Of a stretch of DNA of 64,000 nt, positions 14,160 through 41,555 are shown piece by piece. Both the position numbers and the translations under genes were made by a program. How positions within the stretch are numbered: position 1 is the first letter of the stretch; each line of letters begins with the position of its first letter. Source of the stretch: Pseudobdellovibrionaceae bacterium (GTDB taxonomy: Bacteria > Bdellovibrionota > Bdellovibrionia > Bdellovibrionales > UBA1609). Location: the NCBI GenBank assembly GCA_947444305.1, contig CANEZP010000008.1, positions 86,682-150,681 of the forward strand. Reading direction: 5' to 3'. The notes below the pieces were generated by a model, which was not told the DNA's origin, made no database searches, and saw nothing but the letters and a program-made list of their open reading frames with translations.

Positions 14160-14235
14160 TGGGGTGTCGGCAAGCTGGTAAGCCTTCAGATTTTGATTCT
14201 GACATTCGCAGGTTCGAGTCCTGCCACCCCATCCA
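14160..14235 (+). tRNA. tRNA-Gln (anticodon UUG), CCA encoded
   Basis: Manual cloverleaf. Acceptor tggggtg/cacccca, D arm ggc-aagctggtaa-gcc, anticodon arm tcaga-ttTTGat-tctga, variable loop cattc, T arm gcagg-ttcgagt-cctgc, discriminator t, then CCA. 76 nt. Resembles E. coli tRNA-Gln. Confidence 0.9.
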
Positions 14236-14240
14236 ATTTC
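14220..14240 (+). repeat. attL-type core: tRNA-Gln 3' end (cctgccaccccatccaatttc)
   Basis: This 21-mer recurs as direct repeats at 25664-25682, 28846-28866 and 30041-30056, with a partial copy at 29021-29033. Confidence 0.7.
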
Positions 14241-14243
14241 TTT

Positions 14244-15335
14244 CTAACTCCCCGAAATCAAACGCAGTTTTTTTGACAGAATATGGGTTGAGGGTTTTTG
14301 CGGGTCAACGTTTGCCCCGAACATCACATCTGTTGCCCCATCCACTCTGAAAACATCACTCAAGGCACTCGAAACCTTCTGCTTCTGATGATCCGTTTCG
14401 CCCGTATATCTGCGGGTCACTCTTACGGAAGAGTGTCCGAGAAAACGAGAGATCGCATCGATATCACCAGTCGCTTCGTTTGCGAGTGTAGCCGATGTTC
14501 TTCTCATGAAATGAGTTCCGCTTACGTGCGTGAAGCCTAGCGATTTAAGCATCGTGTTGTAGTACGTCGCGATTGTTTTCCTATTTAACGGACTTCCATC
14601 GTGACGTGGCATCAACAGCGGGTTCTTTGGATCACTTACATCGATCAGGCCTTTAAGCTCCGGCACCAACTCCAAAGGAATCGGTAGATAACGAACACGC
14701 TTTGTCTTCGTGTGCTCTTTAATTTTGGGCTCCCATGTACGGAAGTCCCAATGAACACTTCTACGAATCGTTATCACGCGCTTGTTGAGGTCGACGCAGT
14801 CTTTATAGAGTGCGCACACCTCACCGATCCTAAGGGCAAAGAAGTACTGTAGGAGTGCTGTGTAGTAGTAGGTCCGATGTCGATTCTTAAGTCTTTGAAG
14901 AAACGCGATGGTTTCTTCAGAGTTTAAGTACTTCACTTCACCTTCTACGTTCGGCACCAGCGTGGTCATCTTCTTTAGCTTCTTAAAAGAAGGCATTGCA
15001 TAGCCAGCCCCTTCCGGAACCTCCTCTTTATAGAACTGAAGAATGACTCGTAACATCTGCCATTCCTTCATGAAGGATTTTCTTCTGAAGGATCTGGGAA
15101 AGTCATTCATCCAAAAATACGCGAGGCGGTTCAAAACCTGGCCATCGATCTTATTCACCGGATAATCGAGAAGGAAGTCCACCGCGGGAAGTAGATTTTC
15201 GTACTTCTGCTGCGTACTTTCCTCGATCAAAAGAAAATGGAACTTCTTCCACACCACGATGAGATCGCGAAACAAGAACCCGAGGGTCCTTTCTCCTTCG
15301 ACGTCCATCGTAAGGCTAGAGTCTTCAAGACTCAT
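14244..15335 (-). CDS. int: Tyrosine recombinase / phage-type integrase
   Basis: 363 aa. Catalytic signature ALRIGE (Arg), HFMRRT (HxxR), LGHSSVRVTRRY (His, Tyr). The stop lies 9 nt from the tRNA end. Confidence 0.9.
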   Translation of the reverse strand: MSLEDSSLTMDVEGERTLGFLFRDLIVVWKKFHFLLIEESTQQKYENLLPAVDFLLDYPVNKIDGQVLNRLAYFWMNDFPRSFRRKSFMKEWQMLRVILQFYKEEVPEGAGYAMPSFKKLKKMTTLVPNVEGEVKYLNSEETIAFLQRLKNRHRTYYYTALLQYFFALRIGEVCALYKDCVDLNKRVITIRRSVHWDFRTWEPKIKEHTKTKRVRYLPIPLELVPELKGLIDVSDPKNPLLMPRHDGSPLNRKTIATYYNTMLKSLGFTHVSGTHFMRRTSATLANEATGDIDAISRFLGHSSVRVTRRYTGETDHQKQKVSSALSDVFRVDGATDVMFGANVDPQKPSTHILSKKLRLISGS

Positions 15336-15538
15336 TTCTTGGCCCGTGTTCTTGAACTTTATCGCATCGACGATGTTCGGGAAGAAAGACTGTTCGCGCT
15401 TACTTACCCCTCCGACTTGGATTCGTCTGACTGCGCGATATTTTCCCGTAGGCTTCCAAATCGAAGCCGCTTCACACCAATAGAACTGCTAATAAATCCC
15501 CGGCTTATTTTTAACCGGGACTTCTTTTCTAGTCGATT

Positions 15539-15781
15539 TCATCTAGTGCCTCCTTTGGAGAACCACTCACGAACCCGTGTAGGATGAAACCGCAAAAGCC
15601 TTCCGACTTTAGAAAAGGGAATTGAACCTTCAGCAACTAATCGTCGAATATGCCGAGGTGAACACTTAAGCTCCCTAGCGACATCTTCGACGTCCCAAAC
15701 CAACGAATTTTCAAAGACCAACGGCGGATATTCCTCCGCCTTTAGAGAACTATTTCTCATTCTTTCTCCTTCGGAAATCAA
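15539..15781 (-). CDS. xis: Excisionase-type helix-turn-helix DNA-binding protein
   Basis: 80 aa. WDVEDVARELKCSPRHIRRLVAEGSIPFSKVGRLLRFHPTRVREW matches the MerR-superfamily excisionase HTH pattern. It lies upstream of int. Confidence 0.7.
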   Translation of the reverse strand: MISEGERMRNSSLKAEEYPPLVFENSLVWDVEDVARELKCSPRHIRRLVAEGSIPFSKVGRLLRFHPTRVREWFSKGGTR

Positions 15782-15966
15782 ACAAAGATATTTTTTCGAT
15801 TAGAATCTGAAACGATCTGTCTTAGTGCTTTAACAAGCTGAAGTGTGTATTTACGCGAGAGTAAACCAGGCGCTTCAGATCCCTTGCGACTGTTGACTGG
15901 GCATCTCAATGAATTATTGAACAAAACTTGCGCGCATTGCCTTACGAGCAACAAAATTTTTCGCAA
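15778..15966 (-). CDS. Small hypothetical ORF upstream of xis
   Basis: 62 aa with a 4-nt overlap on the xis start. No recognisable motif. Confidence 0.25.
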   Translation of the reverse strand: MRKILLLVRQCAQVLFNNSLRCPVNSRKGSEAPGLLSRKYTLQLVKALRQIVSDSNRKNIFV

Positions 15967-15989
15967 AAAAGCTATAAAAGATTATCTAA

Positions 15990-16025
15990 CGAATCGATCC
16001 TATCCCACGAATCGATGCCATCCCA
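15990..16025 (+). repeat. Tandem 18-bp direct repeat (2 copies)
   Basis: cgaatcgatcctatccca followed by cgaatcgatgccatccca (16/18 identical), in the non-coding part of island A. Confidence 0.8.
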
Positions 16026-16140
16026 CCCACGACCCACCGAGACCGTATTTACATTTCATATTTTCTCTCTTCTGCCCCCATCCCCGCTTATCTGTAATCC
16101 TTATTTTCTTCTCTCTCCATACTTCCTCCCTCCCCTCGCC

Positions 16141-16247
16141 CGCCACCTTCCCCATGGTTTGACACCAGCAATTGACCATTTCCCCGAAACATCGTGGAGG
16201 GGGAGTGGTCAATTGCGACCAGGGGGCAAAGCGTGGGGAAGGTGGCG
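16141..16247. repeat. 107-bp imperfect palindrome (long hairpin/cruciform potential)
   Basis: Outer arms cgccaccttcccca (16141-16154) and tggggaaggtggcg (16234-16247) are perfect. Inner arms caattgacca (16169-16178) and tggtcaattg (16206-16215) are perfect. The sequence between them is imperfectly paired. Confidence 0.8.
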
Positions 16248-16449
16248 GAACTAGGGCCATGGATTGACACGGAAATTTCGATTTCACCACCGACTGCCGC
16301 GCGCCTCGCAATGCGAACTTAATTCGCGATCTTTTCAAATGAATTCGCGATGAGGTTCGCATCTTCAAGACGGTTTTATCCCTTCCTTAGGGTAAATTTG
16401 AACACTGTCTCTGAAGAGAGGTTGAGCGGTACGCTGATTTCGGCGCTAA

Positions 16450-16875
16450 CTAATCCTCGGAAGCGATCTCGATCGAGAAATTACGAAGCCTTGCCTCAAT
16501 CGAATCGCGTGCGATGCGGAATCTTTGAAGCAGCTCATCTTCCGGTAACGGCTCTTTGGACGCTGGATCTGGAAAGGGCCAATGAAGCCGCTTTGCATTC
16601 GGTGCCACCACCGTCGGGCATACTTCTTCCGCACAAAGAGTGATCACAAAATCTAGGCGCTCCAGAAAGTCCGCTGGAATCTCTTTTATGCTTTTTGAAA
16701 AGTGCCGGGAGATATCGACTCCCTTTTCTGCCATTACTTTAACCGCAACAGGATTTAATTGGCCTGGCTCCGAACCTGCGCTCTCGACTTGAGCTTTGGG
16801 GAAAATCTTTCGAGCTAGGCCTTCAGCCAACTGACTCCTCGCCGAATTCGCCACGCACATGAATAAGATCTTCAA
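16450..16875 (-). CDS. arsC: Arsenate reductase, LMW-PTPase family
   Basis: 141 aa. ILFMCVANSARSQLAEG (CX5R P-loop) plus downstream Cys pair LCAEEVCP. Confidence 0.9.
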   Translation of the reverse strand: MKILFMCVANSARSQLAEGLARKIFPKAQVESAGSEPGQLNPVAVKVMAEKGVDISRHFSKSIKEIPADFLERLDFVITLCAEEVCPTVVAPNAKRLHWPFPDPASKEPLPEDELLQRFRIARDSIEARLRNFSIEIASED

Positions 16876-16887
16876 AGTTCCTCCGGC

Positions 16888-17586
16888 CTAGATTTTCGCA
16901 AGATCAACCTTGGATGCTCGTTCTTTTCTTTCGCTGTACCGATCCACTAAAAATTCGCGATGGTCCCGGGTCAAATAGGTAAAGCGCATAAGCTCTTCTA
17001 AGACGTCCACTACCCGGTCGCGGTAGGAGGAGTCTTTCATTTGACCATTCTCGTGAAACTCGTCATAGGCTTTCGCAACGGAGGACTGGTTAGGGATCGT
17101 TATCATGCGCATCCACCGGCCAAGAAGCCTCAAAGAATTGACCGCATTAAACGACTGAGAACCGCCAGACACTTGCATAATCGCAAGGGTGCGGCCTTGA
17201 GTCGGCCGCTGTCCTGCGTATTCTAGCGGAATCCAATCAATTTGATTCTTCATAACACCAGAGAGATTTCCATGCATTTCGGGCGTTACCCATACCTGAC
17301 CTTCCGACCAAAGACTCAGCTCACGCAGCTCTTTTACTTTAGGATGATCAGAATCTTGCTGATCGAAGACAGGCAAGCCTTTGGGGTCAAAAGTTTTTAC
17401 CTCGGTGCCCATGTAGCTCAGTACGCGCACGACCTCTTGAGATAGGAGGCGTGAAAAGGATTTTGCGCGTAGCGATCCGTGCAACACTAAAATTTTTGGC
17501 GGGTGCTTCGAAGAAGAATCTTGATCACCTTGAACGAGCAAATTGAATTTCTCGCCCGCTAGGTAATCTACGTTAGGAATTTCCAC
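16888..17586 (-). CDS. arsH: ArsH, NADPH-dependent FMN reductase
   Basis: [19 protein letters not shown] and the remaining ArsH-like core. I prefer GTG 17586 (preceded by GGGAGCAGG) over the longest-ORF TTG 17637, which would overlap acr3 by 65 nt. Confidence 0.85.
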
Positions 17587-18622
17587 GCACCTGCTCCCTG
17601 AAATATTGTTTACGAATCCAAAGTGAAACAGACACAAGTCCGATTAAAACCGGAACCTCGACCAGTGGCCCGATAACCGCCACAAATGCGGCTCCATGAT
17701 TTATACCAAAGGTCGCAATGGCGACGGCAATAGCTAACTCAAAATTATTTGAAGCGGCGGTAAAGGATAATGTAGCTGATTGTCTGTAGGGGGCACCGGC
17801 TTTGCCGCTCATGTAAAAGGAAACGATGAACATAATCAGAAAGTAGATCAATAGCGGAACCGCGATCCGGAAAACATCAAAAGGCAGACTAATGATCTGC
17901 TCGCCCTTGAGGGAGAACATCAGAACGATTGTGAATAATAGTGCCACTAACGCGATTGGTCCGATCCTCGGCAAAAATACGCTTTCGTACCACTCATCCC
18001 CTTTTGATCTGCGTAGAAAGAAACGAGTCAAAAAACCGGCTACAAAGGGTACGCCCAAGTACAAAAAAACCGCGGCCGCAACTTCCCCGATGGTGATCGC
18101 TACGTTCGTCTCCGGCATCCCGAATAAATGGGGGAGTGTTTTAAGAAAGAAAACCGCGTACACAGGAAAGAAGAGAACCTGAAAGATCGAATTGAAAGCA
18201 ACTAGGCCGGCGCAATATTCCCGGTCTCCGTCAGCCAAGTCATTCCACACAAGCACCATTGCGATACAGCGGGCGAGACCAATGAGGATGAGACCGATCA
18301 TATATTCAGGTCGGTTACGCAAAAAGATCGCTGCCAAGCCAAACATGAGCAACGGCCCGATCACCCAATTTTGTACAAGTGTAAGCAAAAGAATTTTTTT
18401 GTTTGAGAAAACCTGCCCTATTTCTTCATACTTAACTTTGGCAAGCGGCGGATACATCATGAGGATTAAACCAATTGCAATCGGAAACGAGGTCGTTCCT
18501 ACACTAAACCGCTGCAGAAACGGCACTACCCCGGGGACCATGTATCCCAATGCCACGCCAAAAAACATCGCGGCAAAGATCCAAACTGTAAGGTATCGAT
18601 CGAGGAAAGAAAGCCTTTTCAT
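17573..18622 (-). CDS. acr3: ACR3-family arsenite efflux permease
   Basis: [27 protein letters not shown] is a typical ACR3 N-terminus, and the protein is multi-TM throughout. I prefer ATG 18622 over the longest-ORF start 18691. Confidence 0.9.
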
Positions 18623-18703
18623 ACGCCAACCTTTGAGATCTGGGATCCAAGTGTTAATCCCCGGTTCATTGACTTTGAATAACACTTCCATTATTCCAGA
18701 ACA

Positions 18704-19018
18704 ATGGAAATAACGAACGCATGCGAAGCTTTCTCATCCCTCTCGCAAGAGACTCGGCTCAAGACTTTTAAACTGCTTATTCAATTTGGTAAGGATGGCG
18801 CGGCGGCTGGAAAGCTTGCCGAAGAACTTGAAATTCCAGACAATACTTTATCCTTTCACCTTGCCCAGATGACAAAGGCAGGACTTGTAACGTCTGAAAG
18901 AAGCGGCCGTTCTATTATTTATGTTGCGAATACTAAGCTAATGACTTCGCTAATTGGCTTTCTCAAAGAGAATTGTTGCGTCAGAGAGAGCAATTCACGG
19001 GTAAAGGCGAAGTGCTAA
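18704..19018 (+). CDS. arsR: ArsR/SmtB-family metalloregulator
   Basis: 104 aa. Winged-HTH core [13 protein letters not shown]...[26 protein letters not shown]-terminal Cys cluster [16 protein letters not shown]. Divergent from acr3. Confidence 0.85.
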
Positions 19019-19071
19019 GTGCTTTTTTGTAGCTTCACCAAGCACTCGTTTCACACAGGAGACGTAGAATT

Positions 19072-21477
19072 CTAAATTCTCGCGCGAGTGAGTTTTAATG
19101 CATTTGCGATCACCGACACCGAACTTAAGCTCATCGCAAGGCTCGCCATCATCGGATTCATAAGAATTCCAAACGCCGGATATAGTATTCCCGCCGCGAC
19201 GGGCACACCCAAAAGATTGTAGGCAAAAGCGAAGAATAAGTTCTGTCGAATATTCTTCATAGTTTGCTGACTAAGTTTATGTGCTCGAACTATTCCGGAC
19301 AGATCGCCTTTCAACAGTGTAATCGACGCACTTTCCATAGCCACGTCTGTTCCTGTACCCATGGCGATGCCCACATCAGCCTGAGCCAATGCCGGAGCAT
19401 CGTTGATTCCATCGCCGGCCATCGCGACTATTTTTCCGCTTTCGCGCAACTTTCGGACGACTTCATTCTTTTGCTCGGGTAATACCTCGGCCTCAAAGCG
19501 GTCAATGCCGACCTCTTTCGCAACAGCTGCGGCAGTAATTCTATTGTCGCCTGTCAACATGATGACTTCGATCTTCTTCGAGTGAAAGTAGGCGATGGCT
19601 TCCTTCGAAGTTTCTTTCACGGGATCTTTAACCGCGATGATTCCGGCGGGCTTGGAGTCAATTGCGACAAGCATCGCTCCGTGACCTGACTCCTGAAGGT
19701 TCTTGGCAATTCCAACCAGCTCGGAGGCATCTATCCGGTATTTCTCCATCAAACGTTTGTTTCCAATGACTACACGCCTACCGTCGACCGTTCCTTCCAC
19801 TCCCATTCCAGTTATTGATTGGAAATCCTTAACTTCCAATAGCGTTAAGCCTCTTTGAATTGCGCCTTCAACAATAGCTTCCGCGAGTGGGTGTTCGCTG
19901 GCTTTTTCAAGAACGGCAGCGAGTGCCAGAACTTCGTCTTCATTAGCCCCGTCTACTGTTTTCACAACGGCTAGCTTCGGCTTCCCCAGTGTGAGGGTTC
20001 CAGTCTTATCAACGATAAGCGTGGTGATTTTCTCCATTCCCTCTAAAGCTTCCGCACTTTTAATCAGTACTCCGTGCGTGGCCCCTTTCCCCGTCCCAAC
20101 CATAATGGACATCGGAGTCGCGAGACCGAGGGCACAAGGACACGCAATGATAAGAACTGAGACGGCATTAACAATCGCAAATGTGAACGCAGGATCGGGC
20201 CCGACCAGGAACCAAACAACCGCCGTAATGATGGCGATGAGAACGACTGCAGGCACAAAATACGCGGCCACTTGATCGGCAAGCTTTTGAATGGGTGCTC
20301 GGCTTCGCTGAGCTTGCGATACCATTTTGACGATTTGCGAGAGGAGCGTGTCCGAACCAACGCGCGTTGCTTCCATGACGAAAGAACCCGTTGCATTTAC
20401 GGTTGCACCAATGACCGAGTCTCCAGCACCCTTCTCGACTGGAATGGGTTCACCGCTAATCATGGACTCATCGACCGAGCTACGGCCCTCGATAACCTTT
20501 CCGTCGACGGGGACTTTTTCGCCGGGCTTAACTCTTAGCCGATCTCCGATCTTGATATGCTCGATCGGAATATCTTCTTCAGCTCCATTTGGACCGATAC
20601 GCTTTGCCGTTTTCGCCGCCAGCCCAAGCAATGCCCGAATGGCATTGCCCGTTTGGCTGCGCGCTCTGAGCTCCAAAACTTGACCAACTAATACCAGCGT
20701 AGTGATGACCGCGGCCGCTTCGAAATAAAGTGGAACCATTCCGCCGTGAGTCTTCAAATTTTCGGGAAAGATGACGGGAAAAAAGGTGGCCACGATACTG
20801 TAGACATAGGCCACACCGGTTCCGATGGAAATGAGGGTGAACATATTTAGGTTCCAGGTTTTGACCGATGCCCAACCACGTTCAAAGAATGGAAGCCCTC
20901 CCCAAAGAGCGACAGGAGTTGCCAGAGTAAATTGAATCAAGGCATTGATCCATCCAGGTATAAGATGTTGAACGGGCTGACCAGGAAGAATGTCGGACAT
21001 TGCCAGTAGCGTGAGCGGAATGGTTAGCACTGCACTGATCTTTAACCGTCTTGTGAAGTCTACCAATTCAGGATTGGCTTCGTCTGTGAGGCTAACTTCT
21101 TCAGGCTCCAGCGCCATTCCGCAGATAGGACAATTGCCAGGACCTTTTTGTCGAACTTCCGGGTGCATAGGGCAAGTGTAGATACGCTCGCTGTCTTCGG
21201 CCGAAACTATTACTTTCTCCGTAGACTTTGTTGAATAGCTCTCCGGATTAGCTTCGAATTTTGTTTTGCACTTGGGATTGCAGAAGTAATAAGTCTCATC
21301 TTTATATTTTGTGCTGCCAACTTTGGCGGTATTGGGATCAATGGTCATTCCGCAAACAGGATCGACCACTTGTGCCTGAGGCGGCTTTCTCTTCCCCTCT
21401 AGCGAGCAGCAGGAATGACCATCCGTGGGCACAGGCCCGTGATTGTGGGTATTGTGGTGACCGTGGTCGTGCTTCAT
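19072..21477 (-). CDS. copA: Copper-translocating P1B-type ATPase
   Basis: 801 aa. CPC ([13 protein letters not shown]), [15 protein letters not shown]. The N-terminus has a His-rich tract, a YHS/TRASH-like DPVCGM...YYFCNPKC, and CPMHPEV...CPICGM. Confidence 0.95.
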
Positions 21478-21543
21478 AAAACTCCTCTATTAGAGCGCAT
21501 CAACAGAAAGACTCTTAGACCCGATCCGGCGCGCCCACAACCC

Positions 21544-21574
21544 ACTATCGACGTTCCAGTCATTGGAAGGTCAA
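21544..21574 (-). promoter_or_regulatory. MerR/CueR-type promoter-operator for copA
   Basis: The minus strand reads TTGACC-ttccaatgactggaacgtc-GATAGT. That is a -35 and -10 separated by a 19-bp spacer containing the dyad ttcca/tggaa. Confidence 0.6.
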
Positions 21575-21625
21575 GGCTGAATTCGGGCGCTGCGTGCCAT
21601 TCCCGGACAATAGACGGAGCTGGGC

Positions 21626-21656: not shown

Positions 21657-21679
21657 TATTTACAAGGTTGGAGGTCAAT

Positions 21680-24446: not shown

Positions 24447-24467
24447 TATAAATAAAAGGAGCGACAT

Positions 24468-24845: not shown

Positions 24846-24860
24846 GCTTAACAAACACCG

Positions 24861-25361: not shown

Positions 25362-25663
25362 GACTAAGTGGTAGCGTCTTTTAACATCCTGGTTCTCACC
25401 ACATCGATCTCTAAATCCAATCGGATTCCCAAATGCATCCTTGGCGGCATTATGATCCCCCTAAACCTGTCCAATCTTTGTTTCGTTGGTTTGGGATGGT
25501 TGCGGGTCTTCCTCCCCCATGCAAATCTGTGGGCTTATGCGGGTCAACCCATGTCATACTGCTGCCTATTTAAGCATTTGCTGACATATTGGGTCGGAGC
25601 TAAATTCTCGGAATTGTTAAAACTCAAGTAATTCTATATACCTTTAAAACGAATATCGCGGCA

Positions 25664-25682
25664 CCTGCCACCCCATCCAATT
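25664..25682 (+). repeat. att-type direct repeat of the tRNA-Gln 3' end (junction island A / island B)
   Basis: cctgccaccccatccaatt, 19/19 identical to 14220-14238. Immediately followed by the second integrase gene. Confidence 0.7.
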
Positions 25683-25687
25683 CTTTT

Positions 25688-26692
25688 CTAAACATTCGAA
25701 ACCAAACGCAATTTTGAGACGGGTTTTTTCGGTGCGGGCTTTTGCGGGACAGAATCGCCCCCAAACATTTTATCCGCTCCCCCATCCACTTTAAAAACAT
25801 CGCCAAGCGCCTTTGAAATCTTCTGCTTCTGATGATCAGTTTCGCCCGTATATCTCCGAGTCACCCTCACTGAAGTGTGACCTAAGAATCTCGATACAGC
25901 GTCGATGTCGCCAGTCGCATCGTTTGCTAGAGTCGCGGCCGTTCTTCTCATGAAATGCGTTCCGCTAACGTGATTCAAACCCAGCGAACCCAAAACCATG
26001 TTGTAGTAAGTGGCAATCGTCTTCCTATTTACGGGAAGACCCTTCTTACTCACGAACAACGGATTGCTCGGATCACTTTGCTTAATCACATCTTGAAGTA
26101 CCGGAACCAACTGCTCAGGGATCGGCAAACGCCGTACGCGCTTTGTCTTCGTGTACTCTTTCACCGACGGCAGCCAGGTCCTTAGATCCCAGTGAACACA
26201 ACGACGAATCGTTATGACCTTCTTTTCAAGATCTATGCAGTCTTTGTAGAGGCCGCAGACTTCACCGATCCTCAGGGCAAAAAAGTACTGCAGAAGAGCG
26301 ACTACGAAATAAGTGTCATTACGTTTTTTAAGCTCTTGCAGGAACTTCGTCGCATCTTCTGAATCGAGGTACTTCACGGAACCATCGGAACTTTCAATGA
26401 GCACGGTCCTTTTGCGAGGCTTCTTAAACGAAGGCACATTATAGTTAACGCCCTCCTCAACTTCTTCTCTATAAAATCTTAAGATGACCCTTAGCAGTTG
26501 CCATTCTTTCTCGAACGATTTTCTCCGAAAGCTTCGAGGAAAATCGTTGAGCCAGAATTGCGCTAGCGAATTCAAAACCTTCCCGTCGATATCCTTAGCC
26601 GGGTAATCAGCTAAAAAATCGAGAGCCGGAAGAAGTTTCTCGTACGTTTTTACCGAACATTCGGTTATATTATCAGTCAGCATTTGTTTCAT
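25688..26692 (-). CDS. int: Tyrosine recombinase / integrase, paralog of 14244-15335
   Basis: 334 aa. ALRIGE, HFMRRT, LGHTSVRVTRRY. The C-terminal 111 aa are 81/111 identical to integrase 1 by manual alignment. Confidence 0.9.
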   Translation of the reverse strand: MKQMLTDNITECSVKTYEKLLPALDFLADYPAKDIDGKVLNSLAQFWLNDFPRSFRRKSFEKEWQLLRVILRFYREEVEEGVNYNVPSFKKPRKRTVLIESSDGSVKYLDSEDATKFLQELKKRNDTYFVVALLQYFFALRIGEVCGLYKDCIDLEKKVITIRRCVHWDLRTWLPSVKEYTKTKRVRRLPIPEQLVPVLQDVIKQSDPSNPLFVSKKGLPVNRKTIATYYNMVLGSLGLNHVSGTHFMRRTAATLANDATGDIDAVSRFLGHTSVRVTRRYTGETDHQKQKISKALGDVFKVDGGADKMFGGDSVPQKPAPKKPVSKLRLVSNV

Positions 26693-26721
26693 AAATTGAC
26701 TACAAAACGAAAGGAAAGAAA

Positions 26722-27132
26722 ATGAAAAGAACCGGTAGACTTGCGATCCCAGTTTTGGCCCTTACGCTATTAACAACCAATCTATATGGGAGAGAAAAAG
26801 CAATGACTTCAGAAAAAGTAAAAATAGCGGTTACCATCCGTCTTGAAGCTAAACCAGGTAAGGAGGTCGAGTTGGCCGAATTGCTAACTTCCGCTGCGCA
26901 AGTCGTCGCCAGCACGGAACCAAAGACTTTATTTTGGTATGCCACCAAAGTTAACAGTCGCACTTTCACAATTAATGATGGCTTCGCCGATGAAACAGGC
27001 TTGAAAGCCCATTTTGATGGTAAGGTAGCCGCTTTACTGAAGTCTAAAGCAAGCGACCTGATCGTTGGCGGCTGGGAACAAGGCGTTTTGCCTAACGTAG
27101 TCCAAAGTGATATTCTTTCGAGCATTAAGTGA
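26722..27132 (+). CDS. Secreted ABM (antibiotic-biosynthesis-monooxygenase-like) domain protein
   Basis: 136 aa. Signal peptide, then KIAVTIRLEAKPGKEVELAELL...TLFWYATKVNSRTFTINDGFADETGLKAH, a typical ABM ferredoxin-like pattern. Confidence 0.6.
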   Translation: MKRTGRLAIPVLALTLLTTNLYGREKAMTSEKVKIAVTIRLEAKPGKEVELAELLTSAAQVVASTEPKTLFWYATKVNSRTFTINDGFADETGLKAHFDGKVAALLKSKASDLIVGGWEQGVLPNVVQSDILSSIK

Positions 27133-27156
27133 GTCCGAAAAGGTAGACGATAAATA

Positions 27157-27705
27157 ATGAGAAAACCGCTGAAGCCGAAATCTGAAATCGTCACAGATTT
27201 GAGTCGAGTTTTTCGCGCTCATGGCTTTGATGGAGCCACGTTGACGAAGCTGGTTGAAGAAACTGGACTTGAGCGAGCGAGTCTATATCACCACTTTCCA
27301 AACGGAAAAGCAGATATGGCAGAGGCGGTTTTACTCCAAGCACTATTGGATTTGGAAGCCGACGTGATTAATTTTCTTAAAGAAGAGGGGGATGCAAAAG
27401 CGAAGCTCAAAAGAATGTTTAACGCCGTCGAGGCGTTTTACAACAATGGCAACGATGTTTGTTTCATCACGATTTTCTCGCTTGGCCACCAGAGCAAGAA
27501 AATTGATGAGATGATGAGTGGAGCGATTCGTACTTGGCTTAAGTATCTGGAGAAGACGTTGGCAGATTCAAAAGTTGATGACCCCAAAAAATCAGCTCAA
27601 CAACTTCTATCAACAATTCAAGGAGGTCTCATTCTGGCCCGTACATTAAATGATCCTTCAGTTTTTAGAAACTCCTTAAAGCCTTTACGCGTAGCTTGGC
27701 TGTAG
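27157..27705 (+). CDS. TetR-family transcriptional regulator
   Basis: 182 aa. FRAHGFDGATLTKLVEETGLERASLYHHFPNGKADM is a TetR HTH. Confidence 0.85.
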   Translation: MRKPLKPKSEIVTDLSRVFRAHGFDGATLTKLVEETGLERASLYHHFPNGKADMAEAVLLQALLDLEADVINFLKEEGDAKAKLKRMFNAVEAFYNNGNDVCFITIFSLGHQSKKIDEMMSGAIRTWLKYLEKTLADSKVDDPKKSAQQLLSTIQGGLILARTLNDPSVFRNSLKPLRVAWL

Positions 27706-27845
27706 ACTTTGAACTAATGACACTTCGTTCTAGACCGGTCGGCTATGAGCAGGTGCCAGGCTTCCTGACTCTACCTCAATCGGAATTCATCGTAACGGTT
27801 TGACTTGCTGACGGTTGCGAACAAAACGGAGCCTTTTGGACCGGT

Positions 27846-27879
27846 AAAATCAAAAGAAAGCGGACCAATATTGGTCCGC
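27846..27879 (-). terminator. Rho-independent terminator of the serine recombinase gene
   Basis: Perfect 20-bp palindrome gcggaccaatattggtccgc (27860-27879), followed on the minus strand by tttcttttgatttt. It begins 14 nt after the stop. Confidence 0.65.
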
Positions 27880-27892
27880 CTAGAATGGGTAT

Positions 27893-28603
27893 TTAGCCGC
27901 CTACTTCCTGTTCTCCATCAGTCGAAACGCCCTGGAACTTCATTTGAATTTTTGCGAGCTCTCTTTCTGCTTCGGCCCGCTTCTCAATTTCTGCTTTAAG
28001 AGCTTCCTCTTCACGCTTCATCGCCGCTCTCTCGGCCGAAACACTCCCGTGACTGCATTTCGCAATTAGGCTGATCTGGCGATATGAAATGCCACTTTTT
28101 AATAGTTTCCTAATTAAATCTGAATCGCGCATTTTCTTTCGACCAATCAGCCTCCCCTTCGCCCGAGCATTTGCGAGGCCGATCTTTACCCGGTCTGCGA
28201 TTAAATCCCGTTCGAGCTGAGCAATGCTTGCAAGAATACTGAAGATCGCAACACCTATGGCGGAGTTCGTATCGATTCTTTCTGATATTGAAATGAACTG
28301 AACTCCTTTTGACTTAAACTTCGACAATGCGCTCAGTAAATGGGTGGTGCTTCTTGCAAACCGACTGAAGCTATAGACGACGATGGTAGAGATCTCTCCG
28401 GCTTCAACCGCCGCCATCATCCGATCCAGAGCCGGACGACTGGACTTAGTTCCACTAATGCCGCCGTCCGAATAAAATTCGACATTGGTCATATGATTCT
28501 GCTCACACCAAGTTCTCAATACTCTGACTTGTGATTCTAAGCCGGTCTCTTGATCGGCTGTACTGGTTCTTGAATAGCAAGCGATCCGCTTGTCATCTGA
28601 CAT
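27893..28603 (-). CDS. Serine recombinase (resolvase/invertase family)
   Basis: 236 aa. IACYSRTSTADQ (catalytic Ser), resolvase core VYSFSRFARS, C-terminal HTH (ISYRQISLIAKCSHGSV) and a charged coiled tail. Confidence 0.9.
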   Translation of the reverse strand: MSDDKRIACYSRTSTADQETGLESQVRVLRTWCEQNHMTNVEFYSDGGISGTKSSRPALDRMMAAVEAGEISTIVVYSFSRFARSTTHLLSALSKFKSKGVQFISISERIDTNSAIGVAIFSILASIAQLERDLIADRVKIGLANARAKGRLIGRKKMRDSDLIRKLLKSGISYRQISLIAKCSHGSVSAERAAMKREEEALKAEIEKRAEAERELAKIQMKFQGVSTDGEQEVGG

Positions 28604-28692
28604 TCGTTCTCCGTTTTGTTGTTGCTAGTGGGTAATGTATTTTGAAAAAAGAAAAAACGTTGGCTTGGGTTTGGCTAAACCATTTCAGCTGT

Positions 28693-28716
28693 CCCGCACT
28701 TTTTCGAAAGTGCGGG
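28693..28716. repeat. Perfect 10-bp-stem palindrome upstream of the serine recombinase gene
   Basis: cccgcacttt-ttcg-aaagtgcggg, 90 nt upstream of the recombinase start. Function unknown (candidate recombination or regulatory site). Confidence 0.5.
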
Positions 28717-28845
28717 ATTCTGTGGGATTTGACCTGTCACTTAGCTGCATAAGCAGGCACTTCTTGTCCGACTGAGTCGCGAGCAACTAATTGAAATTAT
28801 TAAAACTTGAGTAAATTCAAAAACTTCAAACTGGATAAAGTGGCC

Positions 28846-28866
28846 CCTGCCACCCCATCCAATTTC
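28846..28866 (+). repeat. att-type direct repeat of the tRNA-Gln 3' end (right end of island B)
   Basis: cctgccaccccatccaatttc, 21/21 identical to 14220-14240. Confidence 0.7.
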
Positions 28867-29020
28867 ATTTCCTTTAGTCGTTTACACTTCCCTACAATTC
28901 TTAGATGGTCCGCATGTTGACCACGCATTCGCGTGGATGGCGTGACAAGCGTTCGAGCCGACCGCATCCACGGACGGACAATCTCCGCTGGGAACATGAG
29001 GACTTGCGATTACCCGTCAG

Positions 29021-29033
29021 CCCCATCCAATTT
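29021..29033 (+). repeat. Partial att core copy
   Basis: ccccatccaattt, identical to 14227-14239 of the tRNA end. Only 13 nt. Confidence 0.45.
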
Positions 29034-29127
29034 TATGGATTATGTAAGGAATTTTTAAAATTGAAAGTCGAAAGGAGAATGTAGCGGTACGAGTATAACC
29101 TAAACAAGTGTTTTACCCGGTCCCAAA

Positions 29128-29877
29128 CTACATTGAGGTGCCTTTATTGTGGACCAAGATCCCTTCCACGATAAAGTTGTTCGGTGGTAATTCCAGGCCG
29201 ATGTGAAAGACAGTCCCAGTTCCGGCGCTTAAATCGAACGCTCCTCTAAAAACTAACGATGCCTCACATCCATCAACTTTAATAAGGCGATCCGTGGGAG
29301 CCATGTCACCGATGGCTACATAGTTTTTAGCATCAGCTGAATAGAATGGATGATCAGATGTAGTTTCGATGGCTTTACCCGTCGGAGACAAATTGCACAG
29401 ACGGCCAAATATTCTATTTTGAATGATCTGGATGGACTTCACTCGATTTATAATCTGGCGCTTACGATCAATATCCCAGGAAATAATCTCGTCCCCATTG
29501 CCGATGCTCGCGATCGCCACGTAGCCCTTGGGAGTCAGAACCCGCATTGCAGACGTAAAGCAACCGTACTTCGAAACCCCTCGGAGTCTTGTTTCCTCGG
29601 ACGCTAATCGCCGAATTTCATCGTGTCCAAATTTGGTCCCGGCTGATTTCTCCATCGATAGTGTTTCAATTGCAAATTGGCGGCGATCAGGCAGTACTAA
29701 TCCGTTGATTTCAATGTCCTCAACTATAGATGCAATTTTCTCTATTCTAGAAGAGTCCCTGGTGCTCACAGGAGGGTTTGCTGCACCAACCTTAGATGCT
29801 GTTCCTAAGAACAATAGTGACACGAAGATCAAAATAAGAATTTGCAGATACGATTTCATTATGGCCCGACGATGCAA
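29128..29877 (-). CDS. Secreted protein with C-terminal Hint (Hedgehog/intein-like, BIL-type) autoprocessing domain
   Basis: 249 aa. Signal peptide, about 75-aa N-terminal segment, then G-C-F (C106) opening a Hint domain: CFTSAMRVLTPKGYVAIASIGNGDEIISWD, TTSDHPFYS (TxxH block), ...GILVHN near the C-terminus. Confidence 0.75.
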   Translation of the reverse strand: MHRRAIMKSYLQILILIFVSLLFLGTASKVGAANPPVSTRDSSRIEKIASIVEDIEINGLVLPDRRQFAIETLSMEKSAGTKFGHDEIRRLASEETRLRGVSKYGCFTSAMRVLTPKGYVAIASIGNGDEIISWDIDRKRQIINRVKSIQIIQNRIFGRLCNLSPTGKAIETTSDHPFYSADAKNYVAIGDMAPTDRLIKVDGCEASLVFRGAFDLSAGTGTVFHIGLELPPNNFIVEGILVHNKGTSM

Positions 29878-30040
29878 TAATCATGGGGCGCTGTAAATTG
29901 CGGTGTTGAAGCATGCAATTTCAGTTGCGTACAATCGATCAACGACGATGAAGATTTTTCCTGAACAAAATCAGATAATGTAGGTCCCGCTTATTCGGAA
30001 ATGCCGCGGACCTAGATCAATTGCTTAGTACGTGCCCCAC

Positions 30041-30056
30041 CACCCCATCCAATTTC
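30041..30056 (+). repeat. att-type repeat remnant
   Basis: caccccatccaatttc, 16/16 identical to 14225-14240. Confidence 0.55.
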
Positions 30057-30231: not shown

Positions 30232-30765
30232 TTAAAGATTTTCGATCGCCGCCTCGAGGGCGCTCGTTTGATCTTTGTATCGACCGCTGGCGACCAATTC
30301 CTCAAGCTTTTCTATTAGAGTTCGGGTGAGCTTAAAAGCCTTTAGATGCTTCTTCTCGTTAAGCGGCTTGGTTCGCTTGTCTTTGAGCTGCGTGTACGCC
30401 CACACTTTCAGCTTTTCAAATGCCACCCCTTCAAACTCAGGACCGGCGTGTTCGCCGGCGCGTAGAGCTTTAATGACGACACGTAGATTTTCTGGCATCT
30501 GCTCAAAGTCGCGAAAACTCTTTTGATAATGAAGTACGGCGGTCGGAAGCACTTCGATAATTCGAGGCTCAACATTCAGGCCGGCCCAAATAGCATCTTT
30601 AATCTCAAGCTTCATACCCGTTTTTCCAGCAATGGGTAGATTTGTATTAAGAAGGCCTTTGCCTTTTAGAAAGGCCATTGTTTTTTTAAAGCGTGGATCT
30701 TTTCGATGCTGAGTATTTTGCTCCGCTTTTGCTTTAATCTTATTTAGAAATTCTGCATTCTTCAT
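30232..30765 (-). CDS. Hypothetical protein with C-terminal ribbon-helix-helix-like segment
   Basis: 177 aa. The C-terminal KAFKLTRTLIEKLEELVASGRYKDQTSALEAAIENL has a beta-strand/helix/helix RHH-like pattern. The start lies 2 nt after the upstream gene's stop. Confidence 0.45.
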   Translation of the reverse strand: MKNAEFLNKIKAKAEQNTQHRKDPRFKKTMAFLKGKGLLNTNLPIAGKTGMKLEIKDAIWAGLNVEPRIIEVLPTAVLHYQKSFRDFEQMPENLRVVIKALRAGEHAGPEFEGVAFEKLKVWAYTQLKDKRTKPLNEKKHLKAFKLTRTLIEKLEELVASGRYKDQTSALEAAIENL

Positions 30766-30767
30766 AA

Positions 30768-31283
30768 TTATTCCCCAGCGAAGTAATTTAAATCGCCGCC
30801 GTTTTCTTCAATACGGCGCATGAGATCCGGAAACTTCTCGCTCGCAATTGCGTCTACGATCAGAACCTTATTCTTTTCTTTTGCCTTCACTGCTTTGCTA
30901 ACTAATGTAGATTCCGGATCTAGCAACTTCACACGAACGAACCTAGAATCAAAAAGCGTATCAAAAGTACTTCCCGGTGGAATCCAGACGAGCTCACTGT
31001 CGTCATCAAGCCGAAGATCGTACTTAGGAAGAATCTCTTTTTTCAAAACGCTGATCACGAACGCTTGATTCTCTTCAACGACTGCGTCGAGATCGTTCGT
31101 CATGGCAAGAGTAAGGATACTTGCTGCAAACTCGTTTGCGAGTAGCGAAGCTTGTCCCATAATTCGAACTTCGATTGGACGAAGTTTGAGGCTTCCGAGC
31201 TTTTCACGTTCCTCATTTTCGGATCTAATCCGCTCGTTTAATTCCTCAAATATGTTTCGAAGCGTCTCCCTCATCACATCCAT
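30768..31283 (-). CDS. Nucleotidyltransferase-fold-like protein (DUF6036/AbiEii-like pattern, tentative)
   Basis: 171 aa. N-terminal helix, then IEVRIMGQASLL...TNDLDAVV (G-x-[AS]...DxD-like), and later VRVKLLDPESTLVSKAVKAKEKNKVLI. Assignment by eye only. Confidence 0.45.
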   Translation of the reverse strand: MDVMRETLRNIFEELNERIRSENEEREKLGSLKLRPIEVRIMGQASLLANEFAASILTLAMTNDLDAVVEENQAFVISVLKKEILPKYDLRLDDDSELVWIPPGSTFDTLFDSRFVRVKLLDPESTLVSKAVKAKEKNKVLIVDAIASEKFPDLMRRIEENGGDLNYFAGE

Positions 31284-31290
31284 AATATAA

Positions 31291-31300
31291 CGTATATACG
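31291..31300. promoter_or_regulatory. Perfect 10-bp palindrome just upstream of the NTase-like gene (candidate operator)
   Basis: cgtatatacg lies 8 nt upstream of the ATG (31283). Two AGATCT palindromes occur at 31314-31319 and 31346-31351. Confidence 0.3.
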
Positions 31301-31512
31301 GTATTTTATCAATAGATCTTGAATACTTATGTTACTTTACAATGAGATCTTTAAAGCTAATAAATTCCAGAGCTTACGAGGAGGTGTACGTTAGGACTGA
31401 ATCCAACCGGGCCTATTCTGATGCACACCTATACCTTTCGGCACTCCAGCTAAGGAGCAACTATCTACGACGAAAAGAAGCATAGGAATGTTGACTACGC
31501 ATCTGAGCAAGT

Positions 31513-31905
31513 TCAACTGAACATTTTTGGCAGCGGGCGTCCGCCGAATTCTTTTTTCGAAAGCTTTCGAGGCTCTTTCTTCCAACCGAACTTTTCTAAA
31601 TCTATAAGTCCGTTTTCATCGACTTCAACGCCTTCGGCTTCAAGGCGCGATTTCTGCCTTTTGTAGTCAACCGAACCTTTTTGAAATTTAATGGAACCGT
31701 CGGACCTGATAACTCGGTACGCGGGGATTTCGGACGAATCTTTAAAGCGATTCACCATAATACTAATGGGACTGGATTGTTGCGCCCGTTCGCAAAGCCT
31801 GGCGATTTGGCCATAGGTTGCTACTTTGCCTTCTGGAATAGCGAGGACCCATTTCATAACGGACTCCCGCATCGTTCCGCTTGGAGCCTTAACAGGAATT
31901 TTCAT
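31513..31905 (-). CDS. Alkyltransferase-like (ATL) protein, MGMT DNA-binding domain without catalytic Cys
   Basis: 130 aa. IPEGKVATYGQIARL ... IPAYRVIRSDGSI. The PCHRV active-site motif is replaced by PAYRV. Confidence 0.75.
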   Translation of the reverse strand: MKIPVKAPSGTMRESVMKWVLAIPEGKVATYGQIARLCERAQQSSPISIMVNRFKDSSEIPAYRVIRSDGSIKFQKGSVDYKRQKSRLEAEGVEVDENGLIDLEKFGWKKEPRKLSKKEFGGRPLPKMFS

Positions 31906-32131
31906 TGATAGCTCCCCTCACTTTTAGAATTGACGCCGTATATTTATCGTTCTGCAGCGGTCATCAAGCCGATCTTCTCTTGGATTAACGAAAGAGCCAA
32001 AAGTTAATTCATTGGGATGTCAGCACCGGACGAGCCTAAAGTAACTGAGAAAGTTCACTTTGCTTTCTAATACGGCTCGGTAGAATAGTGATTACTAAAA
32101 CTTTTGATCTTTTAATAACCCCAGGGTCACC

Positions 32132-41546: not shown

Positions 41547-41555
41547 AAGCCCTCC

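What the first reader, a model, noticed from the sequence alone, without database searches (positions are those of the whole stretch)
14160..32131. Serial integration of genomic islands at tRNA-Gln, marked by five to six copies of the tRNA 3' end
The last 21 nt of tRNA-Gln (cctgccaccccatccaatttc, 14220-14240) recur in direct orientation. Copies lie at 25664-25682 (19/19), 28846-28866 (21/21) and 30041-30056 (16/16). Shorter cores occur at 29021-29033 (ccccatccaattt) and 30219-30227 (ccccatcca). The tRNA copy and the 25664 copy are each followed within 10 nt by the stop of a tyrosine integrase gene. The two integrases are paralogs (81/111 identical over the C-terminus by manual alignment). A shared motif TTAAAACTyrAGTAAwTTC sits about 30 nt left of the 25664 and 28846 copies (25616-25634, 28800-28818), as expected for related attR arms. 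The whole stretch looks AT-richer than both flanks by eye. This suggests at least two intact elements (11.4 kb metal-resistance island, 3.2 kb island) plus 2-3 decayed mini-segments, one of which carries only the Hint-domain gene. The right boundary near 32.1 kb has no repeat that I could find.
Basis: partly seen in the sequence, partly recalled or inferred. Interest (0 to 1): 0.7.

Follow-up and report, generated by a model that had tools for sequence, protein, structure and literature searches.

The report
Stacked decaying islands at tRNA-Gln
An 18-kb, AT-richer stretch next to a glutamine tRNA gene in a Bdellovibrio-like bacterium is a pile-up of mobile DNA islands that inserted one after another into the same tRNA end, a well-known way for bacteria to gain genes (here arsenic and copper resistance). 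Both islands' insertion enzymes are already damaged.

Summary
tRNA-Gln(UUG) lies at 14160-14235. Its 3' end recurs in direct orientation at 25664 (19/19), 28846 (21/21), 30036 (19/21) and 29021 (13/13), against 0 copies expected by chance. Composition is anomalous from 14.2 to about 32.1 kb.

The interpretation, serial site-specific integration (tandem accretion), is supported.
- Each of the two larger segments starts with a tyrosine integrase gene whose stop codon lies 3-5 nt from the repeat.
- Each carries the motif TGCGGGCTTTTGCGGG at fixed offsets from the repeat, +69 and about -136 nt, which I read as arm-type integrase-binding sites.
- The same rare integrase family sits at tRNA-Gln in at least five other Pseudobdellovibrionaceae contigs.
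- A related metagenome-assembled genome (L002) lacks both islands at the orthologous tRNA.

"Two intact elements" is wrong. int1 has an in-frame TAG at codon 18. int2 lacks its first ~105 residues and has no excisionase.

The small segments (155 nt; 1.0 kb with the Hint gene) are bounded by repeats and carry no integrase. The 155-nt segment and the 30036 repeat with its hairpin also occur in L002, so they predate both islands. The 9-mer at 30219 is not significant. The right border at about 32.1 kb is defined by composition only.

This is a new member of a well-known kind and of modest interest.

The parts
14160..14235 (+). tRNA-Gln(UUG), the integration target (attB). Its 3' end is the left repeat DR1 (14220-14240).
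   Evidence: ARAGORN; Rfam tRNA 58 bits; 21-mer search
14241..25663 (.). Island GI-1, 11.4 kb. Genes: int1, xis, arsC (LMWP), arsH-like FMN reductase, ACR3/SBF arsenite carrier, arsR, copA-type P-type ATPase, merR/cueR-type regulator, multicopper oxidase, TRASH-domain and haem-binding proteins.
   Evidence: Pfam; bounded by DR1 and DR2; low GC and odd tetranucleotide usage
14244..15542 (-). int1, a tyrosine integrase. It is full-length by homology (431 codons) but has an in-frame TAG at codon 18 (15491-15489). The longest open frame is 14244-15335 (363 aa), which lacks the predicted N-terminal arm-binding domain.
   Evidence: translate; tblastn with P0004/P0006/P0002; sequence read; PF00589
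15539..15781 (-). xis, an HTH_17 excisionase. Its stop overlaps the int1 ATG (ATGA), as in relatives.
   Evidence: Pfam HTH_17 6e-11; PHROG excisionase; same xis-int overlap in L012, L013, L015 and L016
14289..14305 (+). Putative arm-type site TGAGGGTTTTTGCGGGT, 69 nt from the start of DR1, inside the int1 3' coding sequence (it encodes the PQKP tail).
   Evidence: motif search: 4 hits against 0.24 expected; the repeat finder D9/D11
25528..25544 (+). Putative arm-type site TGTGGGCTTATGCGGGT at the right end of GI-1, 136 nt left of DR2.
25664..25684 (+). DR2, a copy of the tRNA 3' end (19/19, then diverges). It is both attR of GI-1 and attL of GI-2.
25685..28845 (.). Island GI-2, 3.2 kb. Genes: 5'-truncated int2, a 164-aa ORF of unknown function, a TetR regulator and a small serine recombinase (resolvase/invertase type). 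No excisionase.
   Evidence: Pfam; PHROGs; tblastn
25688..26692 (-). int2, a tyrosine integrase fragment. It is homologous to relatives only from their residue ~106 (window 26668 downwards), so the N-terminal arm-binding domain and the start of the core-binding domain are missing.
   Evidence: 68% identical to int1; 77% identical to P0006
25733..25749 (+). Putative arm-type site TGCGGGCTTTTGCGGGA, 69 nt from the start of DR2, inside the int2 3' coding sequence.
28711..28727 (+). Putative arm-type site TGCGGGATTCTGTGGGA at the right end of GI-2, 135 nt left of DR3. It lies in a ~150-nt arm homologous to the GI-1 right end and to L018/L023.
28846..28866 (+). DR3, a perfect 21/21 copy of the tRNA 3' end. 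It is attR of GI-2.
28867..29020 (.). Mini-segment S3, about 155 nt and non-coding. Its right 91 nt are 82% identical to the sequence that directly follows tRNA-Gln in the related genome L002.
   Evidence: no Rfam hit; indels break the ORF; no clear conserved fold
29021..29033 (+). DR4, the 13-nt core CCCCATCCAATTT. The DR in L012 is also limited to this core.
29034..30035 (.). Mini-segment S4, 1.0 kb. Its single gene (29128-29877, - strand) encodes a stand-alone Hint-domain protein with a hydrophobic N-terminus that looks like a signal peptide. No integrase.
   Evidence: Pfam PT-HINT 5e-6 and intein N-terminal region; L002 has a YidC-like gene in the same position
30036..30056 (+). DR5, a 19/21 copy of the tRNA 3' end and the most diverged long copy. 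It overlaps the hairpin TCCAATTTCG(N10)CGAAATTGGA at 30048-30077.
   Evidence: homologous repeat and hairpin in L002; similar hairpins directly after tRNA-Gln in L026 and L032
30057..32100 (.). Segment S5, about 2 kb of low GC with no right-hand repeat. It holds two ORFs of unknown function (30232-30765 and 30768-31283, - strand) and an alkyltransferase-like protein with only the MGMT DNA-binding domain (31513-31905, - strand).

Best explanation
The locus is a tandem array built by repeated site-specific integration into the 3' end of tRNA-Gln(UUG) in a Pseudobdellovibrionaceae genome.

How it works (inferred from the anatomy)
- Elements of one family carry a three-domain tyrosine integrase and an attP site. 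The attP core copies the last 13-21 nt of the tRNA plus its trailer (CC[TGCCA]CCCCATCCAATTT).
- The arms of attP each carry a TGCGGGCTTTTGCGGG site, about -136 and +69 nt from the core. The +69 site lies inside the 3' end of the int gene.
- Each integration restores the tRNA and pushes older insertions to the right. This leaves a partial tRNA copy at every junction.

Likely order, oldest first
1. S4 and S3, the integrase-less segments bounded by repeats. The S3 scar and the DR5 junction are shared with a related genome.
2. GI-2, 3.2 kb.
3. GI-1, 11.4 kb, carrying arsenic and copper resistance.

Current state
- The array is decaying. int1 has a nonsense codon at position 18. int2 has lost its 5' third and its excisionase.
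- Neither island can probably move on its own now. A full-length integrase of the family supplied in trans could in principle still recombine any pair of repeats.

Shown: the repeats, the genes, the arm homology, the motif positions, the integrase defects, the recurrence of the family at tRNA-Gln, and the absence of GI-1 and GI-2 in a relative.
Inferred: the direction and order of events, the binding role of the motif, and the loss of mobility.
For: - Repeats are non-random and all lie on the + strand.
- The integrase stops lie 3-5 nt from the repeats. The proteins match PF00589 and PHROG integrase families.
- A model of the full-length relative P0004 (pLDDT 77) has an N-terminal beta-sheet plus helix domain followed by core-binding and catalytic domains. 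It matches Tn1549 Int (E 1e-13) and full-length lambda Int over about 390 alignment columns.
- The motif TGBGGGYTTWTGYGGGW occurs exactly 4 times in 64 kb (0.24 expected). The offsets from the core are +69, +69, -136 and -135, one at each end of each island. It is also present in the integrase 3' ends of L011, L012 and L017 and in the L023 arm.
- The right-end arms of GI-1, GI-2, L018 and L023 align over about 150 nt.
- Family integrases abut tRNA-Gln in L011, L013, L014 and L017, and abut a tRNA-Gln-like 3' fragment cut by the contig end in L015. In L012 one abuts a repeat that has no tRNA. A 41% relative sits at tRNA-Asp.
- L002 has left-flank genes 64-84% identical at the protein level and the same tRNA-Gln, but no GI-1 or GI-2.
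- L004 (bare tRNA plus trailer) and L018 (family arm, repeat, then the same trailer) look like an empty and an occupied site.
- The 19-mer gave 16 matches in 15 loci in the metagenome collection: 11 inside tRNA-Gln genes, 1 in a 48-nt partial tRNA-Gln, and 4 at tRNA-less sites. Two of those four carry the family arm and one closes a 3.6-kb integrase-less segment.
- Composition shifts at 14.2 and about 32.1 kb.
- Integrase defects.
Against: - No empty site from the same species was found. The right-flank hydrolase has non-conserved neighbours in relatives, so the original right junction is not defined.
- S5 (30.06-32.1 kb) has foreign composition but no right-hand repeat.
- S3, S4 and S5 in the window show no significant similarity to the family's integrase or arms. 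They may come from other element families, or may not be element remnants at all.
- The order of events assumes every integration hit the tRNA itself, yet secondary integration into internal repeats is possible.
- The binding role of the motif is inferred from position and conservation only. On the int side the motif is also coding sequence.
- The TAG in int1 is seen in the MAG contig and in a Logan assembly of what may be the same reads, so a consensus error is not excluded.
Confidence: 0.82

Rival explanations
1. The composite was assembled elsewhere and arrived in one event. GI-1 plus GI-2, with or without the small segments, would have accreted in a donor, excised through the outermost repeats and integrated here as a unit.
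For: DR1 and DR3 are identical 21-mers, whereas the internal DR2 differs at its right end. Transfer of accreted tandems as one unit is documented for ICE/CIME tandems (review PMC5704250).
Against: No conjugation or mobilisation gene was found in GI-1 or GI-2. Both integrases are defective. S3 and DR5 are already present in L002 without the islands, so at least the right part was resident before the islands arrived.
Confidence: 0.12
2. The small segments S3-S5 are not independent integration scars. DR4 and DR5 with its hairpin would belong to a conserved native trailer region of tRNA-Gln, or to a single very old island. Only GI-1 and GI-2 would then be true insertions.
For: - S3 and the DR5 hairpin are conserved in position in L002.
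- Hairpins of the form AATTT..(loop)..AAATT directly follow tRNA-Gln in L026 and L032.
- The window copies contain no integrase or arm remnant.
Against: - An exact 13-mer and a 19/21 copy of the tRNA end are not expected in a native trailer.
- The cargo between DR4 and DR5 differs completely between the two genomes: a Hint gene here and a YidC-like gene in L002.
- In L002, S3 begins with about 17 nt matching the last codons of a family integrase gene.
- L028 shows another integrase-less 3.6-kb segment closed by the 19-mer.
Confidence: 0.2
3. The array is an assembly artefact of a metagenome-assembled genome, with contigs from different strains joined at the short repeats.
For: The source is a MAG. 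Related assemblies often break inside these islands (L011, L013 and L017 end within about 1.4 kb of the integrase).
Against: - The repeats are only 13-21 nt, shorter than usual assembly k-mers.
- A separate Logan assembly reproduces the left flank, tRNA, int1 and ars junction.
- Tandem arrangements also occur in other samples (L012, L028).
Confidence: 0.04

Closest known systems
Tandem accretion of integrative elements and CIMEs (cis-mobilizable elements) at one att site. Examples are ICESt1-related elements of Streptococcus thermophilus and IME/CIME tandems in streptococci (Pavlovic 2004 and Bellanger 2011, as cited in PMC5704250).
   Same: There are several att copies in direct orientation at the 3' end of one target gene. 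Integrase-bearing elements lie next to segments that keep attL and attR but have no integrase. Decay by deletion was followed by new integration.
   Different: GI-1 and GI-2 contain no conjugation or mobilisation genes, so these are not ICEs or IMEs by content. The host is a Bdellovibrionota MAG and the integrase family is uncharacterised and rare: 23 proteins at E<=1e-10. Cis-mobilisation has not been tested.
tRNA-gene genomic-island hotspots with partial-tRNA repeats. Examples are the Klebsiella pneumoniae Asn tDNA islands (PMC4891358) and tycheposon-seeded islands in Prochlorococcus (bioRxiv 10.1101/2020.12.28.424599).
   Same: A tRNA acts as a seed. New elements push older ones distally. 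Partial tRNAs and fragmented integrases are scattered through the island, and foreign material accumulates at the distal end without a clean boundary.
   Different: No replication module (helicase or primase) of the tycheposon type was found. The array is small (18 kb). The repeat is short (13-21 nt, T-arm/acceptor 3' side).
Lambda-type, arm-dependent tyrosine integrases (lambda Int, Tn916/Tn1549 Int).
   Same: The predicted architecture has three domains and the fold matches Tn1549 and lambda Int. A small HTH excisionase lies upstream and is translationally coupled. Repeated motifs distant from the core occur on both arms.
   Different: Sequence identity to any phage integrase is 30% or less. 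Pfam does not recognise the N-domain. The arm sites are only inferred.

Membership tests
tRNA-integrating genomic island with a tyrosine integrase | Tyrosine recombinase with the catalytic domain, encoded next to the att site | tested here: met
   PF00589 at 1e-22 and 7e-24. ALRIGE, HFMRRT and LGH..RRY motifs are visible. The stops lie 3-5 nt from the repeats.
tRNA-integrating genomic island with a tyrosine integrase | Direct repeat of the tRNA 3' end at the distal boundary | tested here: met
   19/19 and 21/21 copies at 25664 and 28846, with 0 expected.
tRNA-integrating genomic island with a tyrosine integrase | Island absent from the same tRNA locus in related genomes | tested here: inconclusive
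   L002 has the orthologous left flank and tRNA but lacks GI-1 and GI-2. Its contig ends 2.3 kb after the tRNA. L004 and L018 look like an empty/occupied pair in another lineage. No same-species empty site was found, and the right flank is not syntenic in relatives.
tRNA-integrating genomic island with a tyrosine integrase | Full-length, functional integrase and excisionase (an autonomous element) | tested here: not met
   int1 has a TAG at codon 18. int2 lacks residues 1 to ~105. GI-2 has no xis.
tRNA-integrating genomic island with a tyrosine integrase | Excision to a circular form and attB restoration | not testable with these tools
   This needs raw reads or PCR.
CIME / tandem accretion | Segment flanked by att copies, with no integrase or transfer genes, adjacent to an integrase-bearing element at the same site | tested here: met
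   S3 (28867-29020) and S4 (29034-30035) lie between DR3, DR4 and DR5. They contain no integrase fragment by tblastn or by local alignment.
CIME / tandem accretion | Descent from a decayed integrative element | tested here: inconclusive
   The window copies show no remnant. The homologous S3 in L002 starts with about 17 nt matching the 3' end of a family integrase gene.
CIME / tandem accretion | Mobilisation in cis by a neighbouring element's integrase | not testable with these tools
   Homologues of the Hint cargo in other genomes (L036-L039) are not flanked by the repeat. This gives no support for recent movement of S4.
ICE / IME | Relaxase, coupling protein, T4SS or oriT | tested here: not met
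   Pfam, NCBIfam and PHROG scans of the ORFs in 14.2-32.1 kb found none. By contrast, L012 and L016 carry TraG/TraC-like genes.
Tycheposon | Integrase plus a replication module (helicase/primase) at a tRNA, with partial tRNA repeats | tested here: not met
   Partial tRNA repeats are present, but no replication genes were found.
Integron cassette array | IntI integrase, attI, and attC-bounded promoterless cassettes | tested here: not met
   The repeats derive from the tRNA. The integrases are of the arm-type lambda-like kind. IntI structures are only distant fold matches.

The most novel reading that the evidence does not exclude
In Pseudobdellovibrionaceae the tRNA-Gln trailer may work as an exchangeable cassette platform. 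Very small integrase-less units would be shuffled in and out by family integrases supplied in trans by transient islands. The units seen here are the 155-nt S3, 1-kb single-gene segments such as the Hint or YidC-like cassettes, and the 3.6-kb kinase segment in L028. All are bounded only by the 13-21-nt tRNA-end core. That would explain why L002 and this genome share the scars but hold different genes between them.
Probability: 0.12. Interest if true: 0.55.

Novelty: new member of a known kind. Interest (0 to 1): 0.3.

Why it matters
- It documents how a predatory-bacterium lineage (Pseudobdellovibrionaceae) acquired arsenic and copper resistance. The vehicle was a previously uncharacterised, rare integrase family specific for tRNA-Gln.
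- It yields a testable attP layout: a 13-21-nt core plus TGCGGG-repeat sites at about -136 and +69.
- It gives a clear snapshot of island decay, with one nonsense mutation and one 5' deletion.
- For annotation, GI-1 and GI-2 should not be called intact or mobile.
- Conceptually it adds nothing beyond the established model of tandem accretion at tRNA genes.

Tried and rejected
- Viral contig scans with the integrase, the 19-mer and the conserved S3 30-mer found nothing, so nothing links the islands to a phage.
- Rfam (E<=1) over 13.5-33 kb found only the tRNA. S3 is therefore not a known RNA. Folding gave no consistent structure between the window and L002.
- Searching for the right boundary through orthologues of the flanking alpha/beta hydrolase failed. 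L033-L035 have unrelated neighbourhoods and no tRNA-Gln.
- Looking for integrase or arm remnants in S3, S4 and S5 by local alignment with shuffling controls found nothing significant. The 30219 9-mer is rejected as an att copy.
- Testing whether the Hint cassette travels with the repeat: its 45-47% homologues in L036-L039 have no repeat nearby.
- GI-1 against the plasmid collection matched only 92 nt of a copA-like gene. The integrase against phages gave 30% identity or less.
- PADLOC, NCBIfam and PHROGs gave nothing for the unknown ORFs.
- In-situ duplication of one island is rejected. The integrases are 68% identical, and each is closer to an integrase from another genome.

Full report
**1. 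Observation**

The window holds one tRNA gene, tRNA-Gln(UUG), at 14160-14235 on the + strand (Rfam tRNA). Its last 21 nt including the trailer, CCTGCCACCCCATCCAATTTC, recur on the same strand at three places:
- 25664, with 2 mismatches at the right edge (19/19 on the left);
- 28846, 21/21;
- 30036, 19/21 (16/16 from 30041).

No match appeared in 100 shuffles. The 13-nt core CCCCATCCAATTT is also exact at 29021. The 9-mer at 30219 is real, but about 0.5 such 9-mers are expected per window by my arithmetic, and its surroundings are not significantly similar to anything relevant. I count five copies, not six.

GC is 0.44-0.52 from 14 to 32 kb, against 0.53-0.59 to the left. Tetranucleotide distance from the rest of the window roughly doubles between 14.2 and about 32.1 kb and drops sharply there.
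- 81/111 identical residues in the integrase C-termini;
- integrase stop codons 3 and 5 nt after the repeats;
- the TTAAAACT..AGTAA..TTC motif about 30 nt left of two repeats, with a 1-nt indel in the first copy.

**2. Gene content**

GI-1 (14241-25663) encodes the following:
- int1 and an HTH_17 excisionase;
- two small unknown ORFs;
- an ars set: LMW-phosphatase ArsC, an ArsH-like FMN reductase, an ACR3/SBF carrier and ArsR;
- a CopA-type P-type ATPase with YHS/HMBD domains;
- a MerR/CueR-type regulator and a multicopper oxidase;
- TRASH-like and haem-binding proteins.

GI-2 (25685-28845) encodes int2, an unknown 164-aa ORF, a TetR regulator and a small serine recombinase. S4 (29034-30035) holds only a 249-aa Hint-domain protein. 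S5 (30057 to about 32100) holds two unknown ORFs and an alkyltransferase-like protein with only the MGMT DNA-binding domain. No relaxase, coupling protein or T4SS gene was found anywhere in the stretch.

**3. Host and relatives**

The left-flank genes place the window in Pseudobdellovibrionaceae. The integrase family is rare: 23 proteins at E<=1e-10 among 5.8 billion. Where context could be read, its members sit as follows:
- directly beside tRNA-Gln(UUG) in L011, L013, L014 and L017;
- beside a tRNA-Gln-like 3' fragment cut by the contig end in L015, where ARAGORN calls no gene;
- beside a repeat without a tRNA in L012, which is followed by a second, unrelated integrase with xis and TraG-like genes. 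This is another tandem array.

A 41% relative sits at tRNA-Asp instead.

int2 is 77% identical to P0006 and int1 is 72% identical to P0003. Both values exceed the 68% between int1 and int2. The two islands are therefore separate acquisitions, not a duplication.

**4. Architecture of the att sites**

The motif TGBGGGYTTWTGYGGGW occurs exactly four times in 64 kb, against 0.24 expected:
- at 14289 and 25733, each 69 nt from the start of its repeat and inside the integrase 3' coding region (the conserved PQKP tail);
- at 25528 and 28711, 136 and 135 nt left of the next repeat.

So each island has one copy at each end, in the same orientation and at fixed offsets. This is the layout expected for arm-type integrase-binding sites on a reconstructed attP. 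The binding role is my inference and has not been shown.

The roughly 150-nt right-end arms of GI-1 and GI-2 align with each other and with two tRNA-less repeat junctions from other samples, L018 and L023. The motif also recurs in the integrase 3' ends of L011, L012 and L017 and in the L023 arm.

An AlphaFold model of the full-length relative P0004 (pLDDT 77) shows an N-terminal four-strand sheet plus helix (residues 1-65), followed by core-binding and catalytic domains. Its best fold matches are Tn1549 Int, and full-length lambda Int over about 390 alignment columns.

**5. Neither island is intact**

Full-length relatives are 408-441 aa, and the xis stop overlaps the int start.
- In GI-1 that arrangement is kept (ATGA at 15542-15539), but codon 18 is TAG where relatives have AAG (GIY*QFYWC; 15491-15489). 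The longest open frame (363 aa) lacks the N-terminal domain.
- int2 aligns to relatives only from residue ~106. Nothing upstream, in any frame, matches the missing part, and there is no xis.

By analogy with lambda Int, an enzyme without the arm-binding domain should not carry out attP x attB or attL x attR recombination. That point rests on my own knowledge and is inferred here.

**6. The small segments and the relative L002**

L002 is a MAG whose left-flank proteins are 64-84% identical to the window's. It has the orthologous tRNA-Gln but no GI-1 or GI-2. Directly after its tRNA come:
- a ~165-nt segment whose right 91 nt are 82% identical to window S3, and which ends in a second copy of the tRNA end;
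- about 1.1 kb carrying a YidC-like gene where the window has the Hint gene;
- a degraded third repeat with a hairpin and a conserved 26-nt tail, homologous to window 30042-30094.

Everything right of 28846 therefore reflects an older state shared by the two lineages. GI-2 and GI-1 were added later on the tRNA side, as the "newcomers push older ones distally" model predicts.

In L002 the S3 homologue begins with about 17 nt matching the stop-proximal codons of a family integrase gene (CTAACCTTCCGAAAC). This supports a deletion-scar origin. In the window copy I could detect no integrase or arm remnant in S3, S4 or S5.

A further example of an integrase-less segment closed by the 19-mer is L028, a 3.6-kb segment carrying a GAF-PAS histidine kinase.

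**7. Specificity of the repeat**

A scan of the metagenome collection with the 19-mer gave 16 matches in 15 loci:
- 11 lie inside tRNA-Gln genes;
- 1 lies in a 48-nt partial tRNA-Gln (L021);
- 4 lie at tRNA-less sites. Two of these carry the family arm (L018, L023), one closes the L028 segment, and one (L027) was not examined further.

L004 (tRNA plus trailer) and L018 (family arm, repeat, then the same trailer) look like an empty and an occupied site in another lineage.

**8. What remains open**

- The right border at about 32.1 kb is compositional only. Orthologues of the flanking hydrolase have unrelated neighbourhoods, so no ancestral right junction could be recovered.
- The DR5 hairpin could be the native tRNA trailer. 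Similar hairpins follow tRNA-Gln in L026 and L032.
- Alternatively it could be the left end of yet another element type. In L026 the hairpin is followed by CCAATTT repeats and five GGCGGATAT iterons.

**9. Comparison with known systems and verdict**

This is the classical picture of tandem accretion at a tRNA gene, with decay to integrase-less att-flanked segments (CIME-like). It has been described for ICE/IME/CIME tandems (PMC5704250), for Klebsiella Asn-tDNA islands (PMC4891358) and for tycheposon-seeded islands in Prochlorococcus. By gene content it is not an ICE, an IME, a tycheposon or an integron.

The locus is a new member of a known kind. The integrase family and its tRNA-Gln att layout are uncharacterised but conventional. 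The most novel reading still open is trans-mobilised mini-cassettes forming an exchangeable platform. It rests only on the differing cargo between shared scars, and the Hint homologues give it no support.

Noticed in passing
window 29128-29877 (-): A stand-alone 249-aa Hint / bacterial-intein-like protein. It has a hydrophobic N-terminus that looks like a signal peptide, a Cys at the start of the Hint domain (~residue 105), and a C-terminal ...ILVHNKGTSM that leaves only about 5 residues after the HN junction. Only three homologues (45-47% identity) exist among 5.8 billion proteins, all from Bdellovibrionales-type contigs.
   Followed up: partly
window 14336-14344 and 25780-25788; also L011, L012, L017: A second 9-nt copy of the core (CCCCATCCA) lies 109-116 nt inside the 3' end of every integrase gene of the family read here. 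It encodes the conserved VDGG peptide. It may be a secondary core-type site or merely a coding coincidence.
   Followed up: no
L012 11303-16704: Another genome has a tandem at the same core. A family integrase element abuts a 13-nt repeat, followed by an unrelated integrase (SAM_3 type), xis and a TraG-like coupling protein.
   Followed up: partly
L026 2500-2935: tRNA-Gln is followed by a hairpin, several CCAATTT/AAATTGG repeats and five GGCGGATAT iterons upstream of a 352-aa ORF. This looks like a different, possibly replicative, integrated element at the same tRNA.
   Followed up: no
L021 4451-4500: A 48-nt partial tRNA-Gln, running from the anticodon loop to CCA, with no 5' half. This is the signature of a further element class that recombines in the anticodon loop of the same tRNA.
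   Followed up: no
L028 950-4618: A 3.6-kb segment lies between tRNA-Gln and an exact 19-mer repeat. It carries a GAF-PAS histidine kinase and a 173-aa ORF but no integrase.
   Followed up: partly
window 27893-28603 (-): A small serine recombinase (resolvase/invertase type, 236 aa) lies about 240 nt from the right end of GI-2. Whether it relates to the deletion that truncated int2 is unknown.
   Followed up: no
window 16140-16250: Nested inverted repeats in GI-1 (27-nt arms 85% complementary, 18-nt arms 89%) lie between the unknown 122-aa ORF and the ars genes. Rfam gave only weak chance-level hits.
   Followed up: no
window 39000-42000: A second patch of lower GC (0.46-0.49) and raised tetranucleotide distance (0.028) lies outside the finding. 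ORFs were listed but not annotated.
   Followed up: no
window 9520-9816 and L020, L025, L026, L029, L031: A SpoVG homologue is a conserved near neighbour of tRNA-Gln across the clade. In this window four extra genes (OMP-like, unknown, DUF4423, PAP2) lie between them.
   Followed up: no
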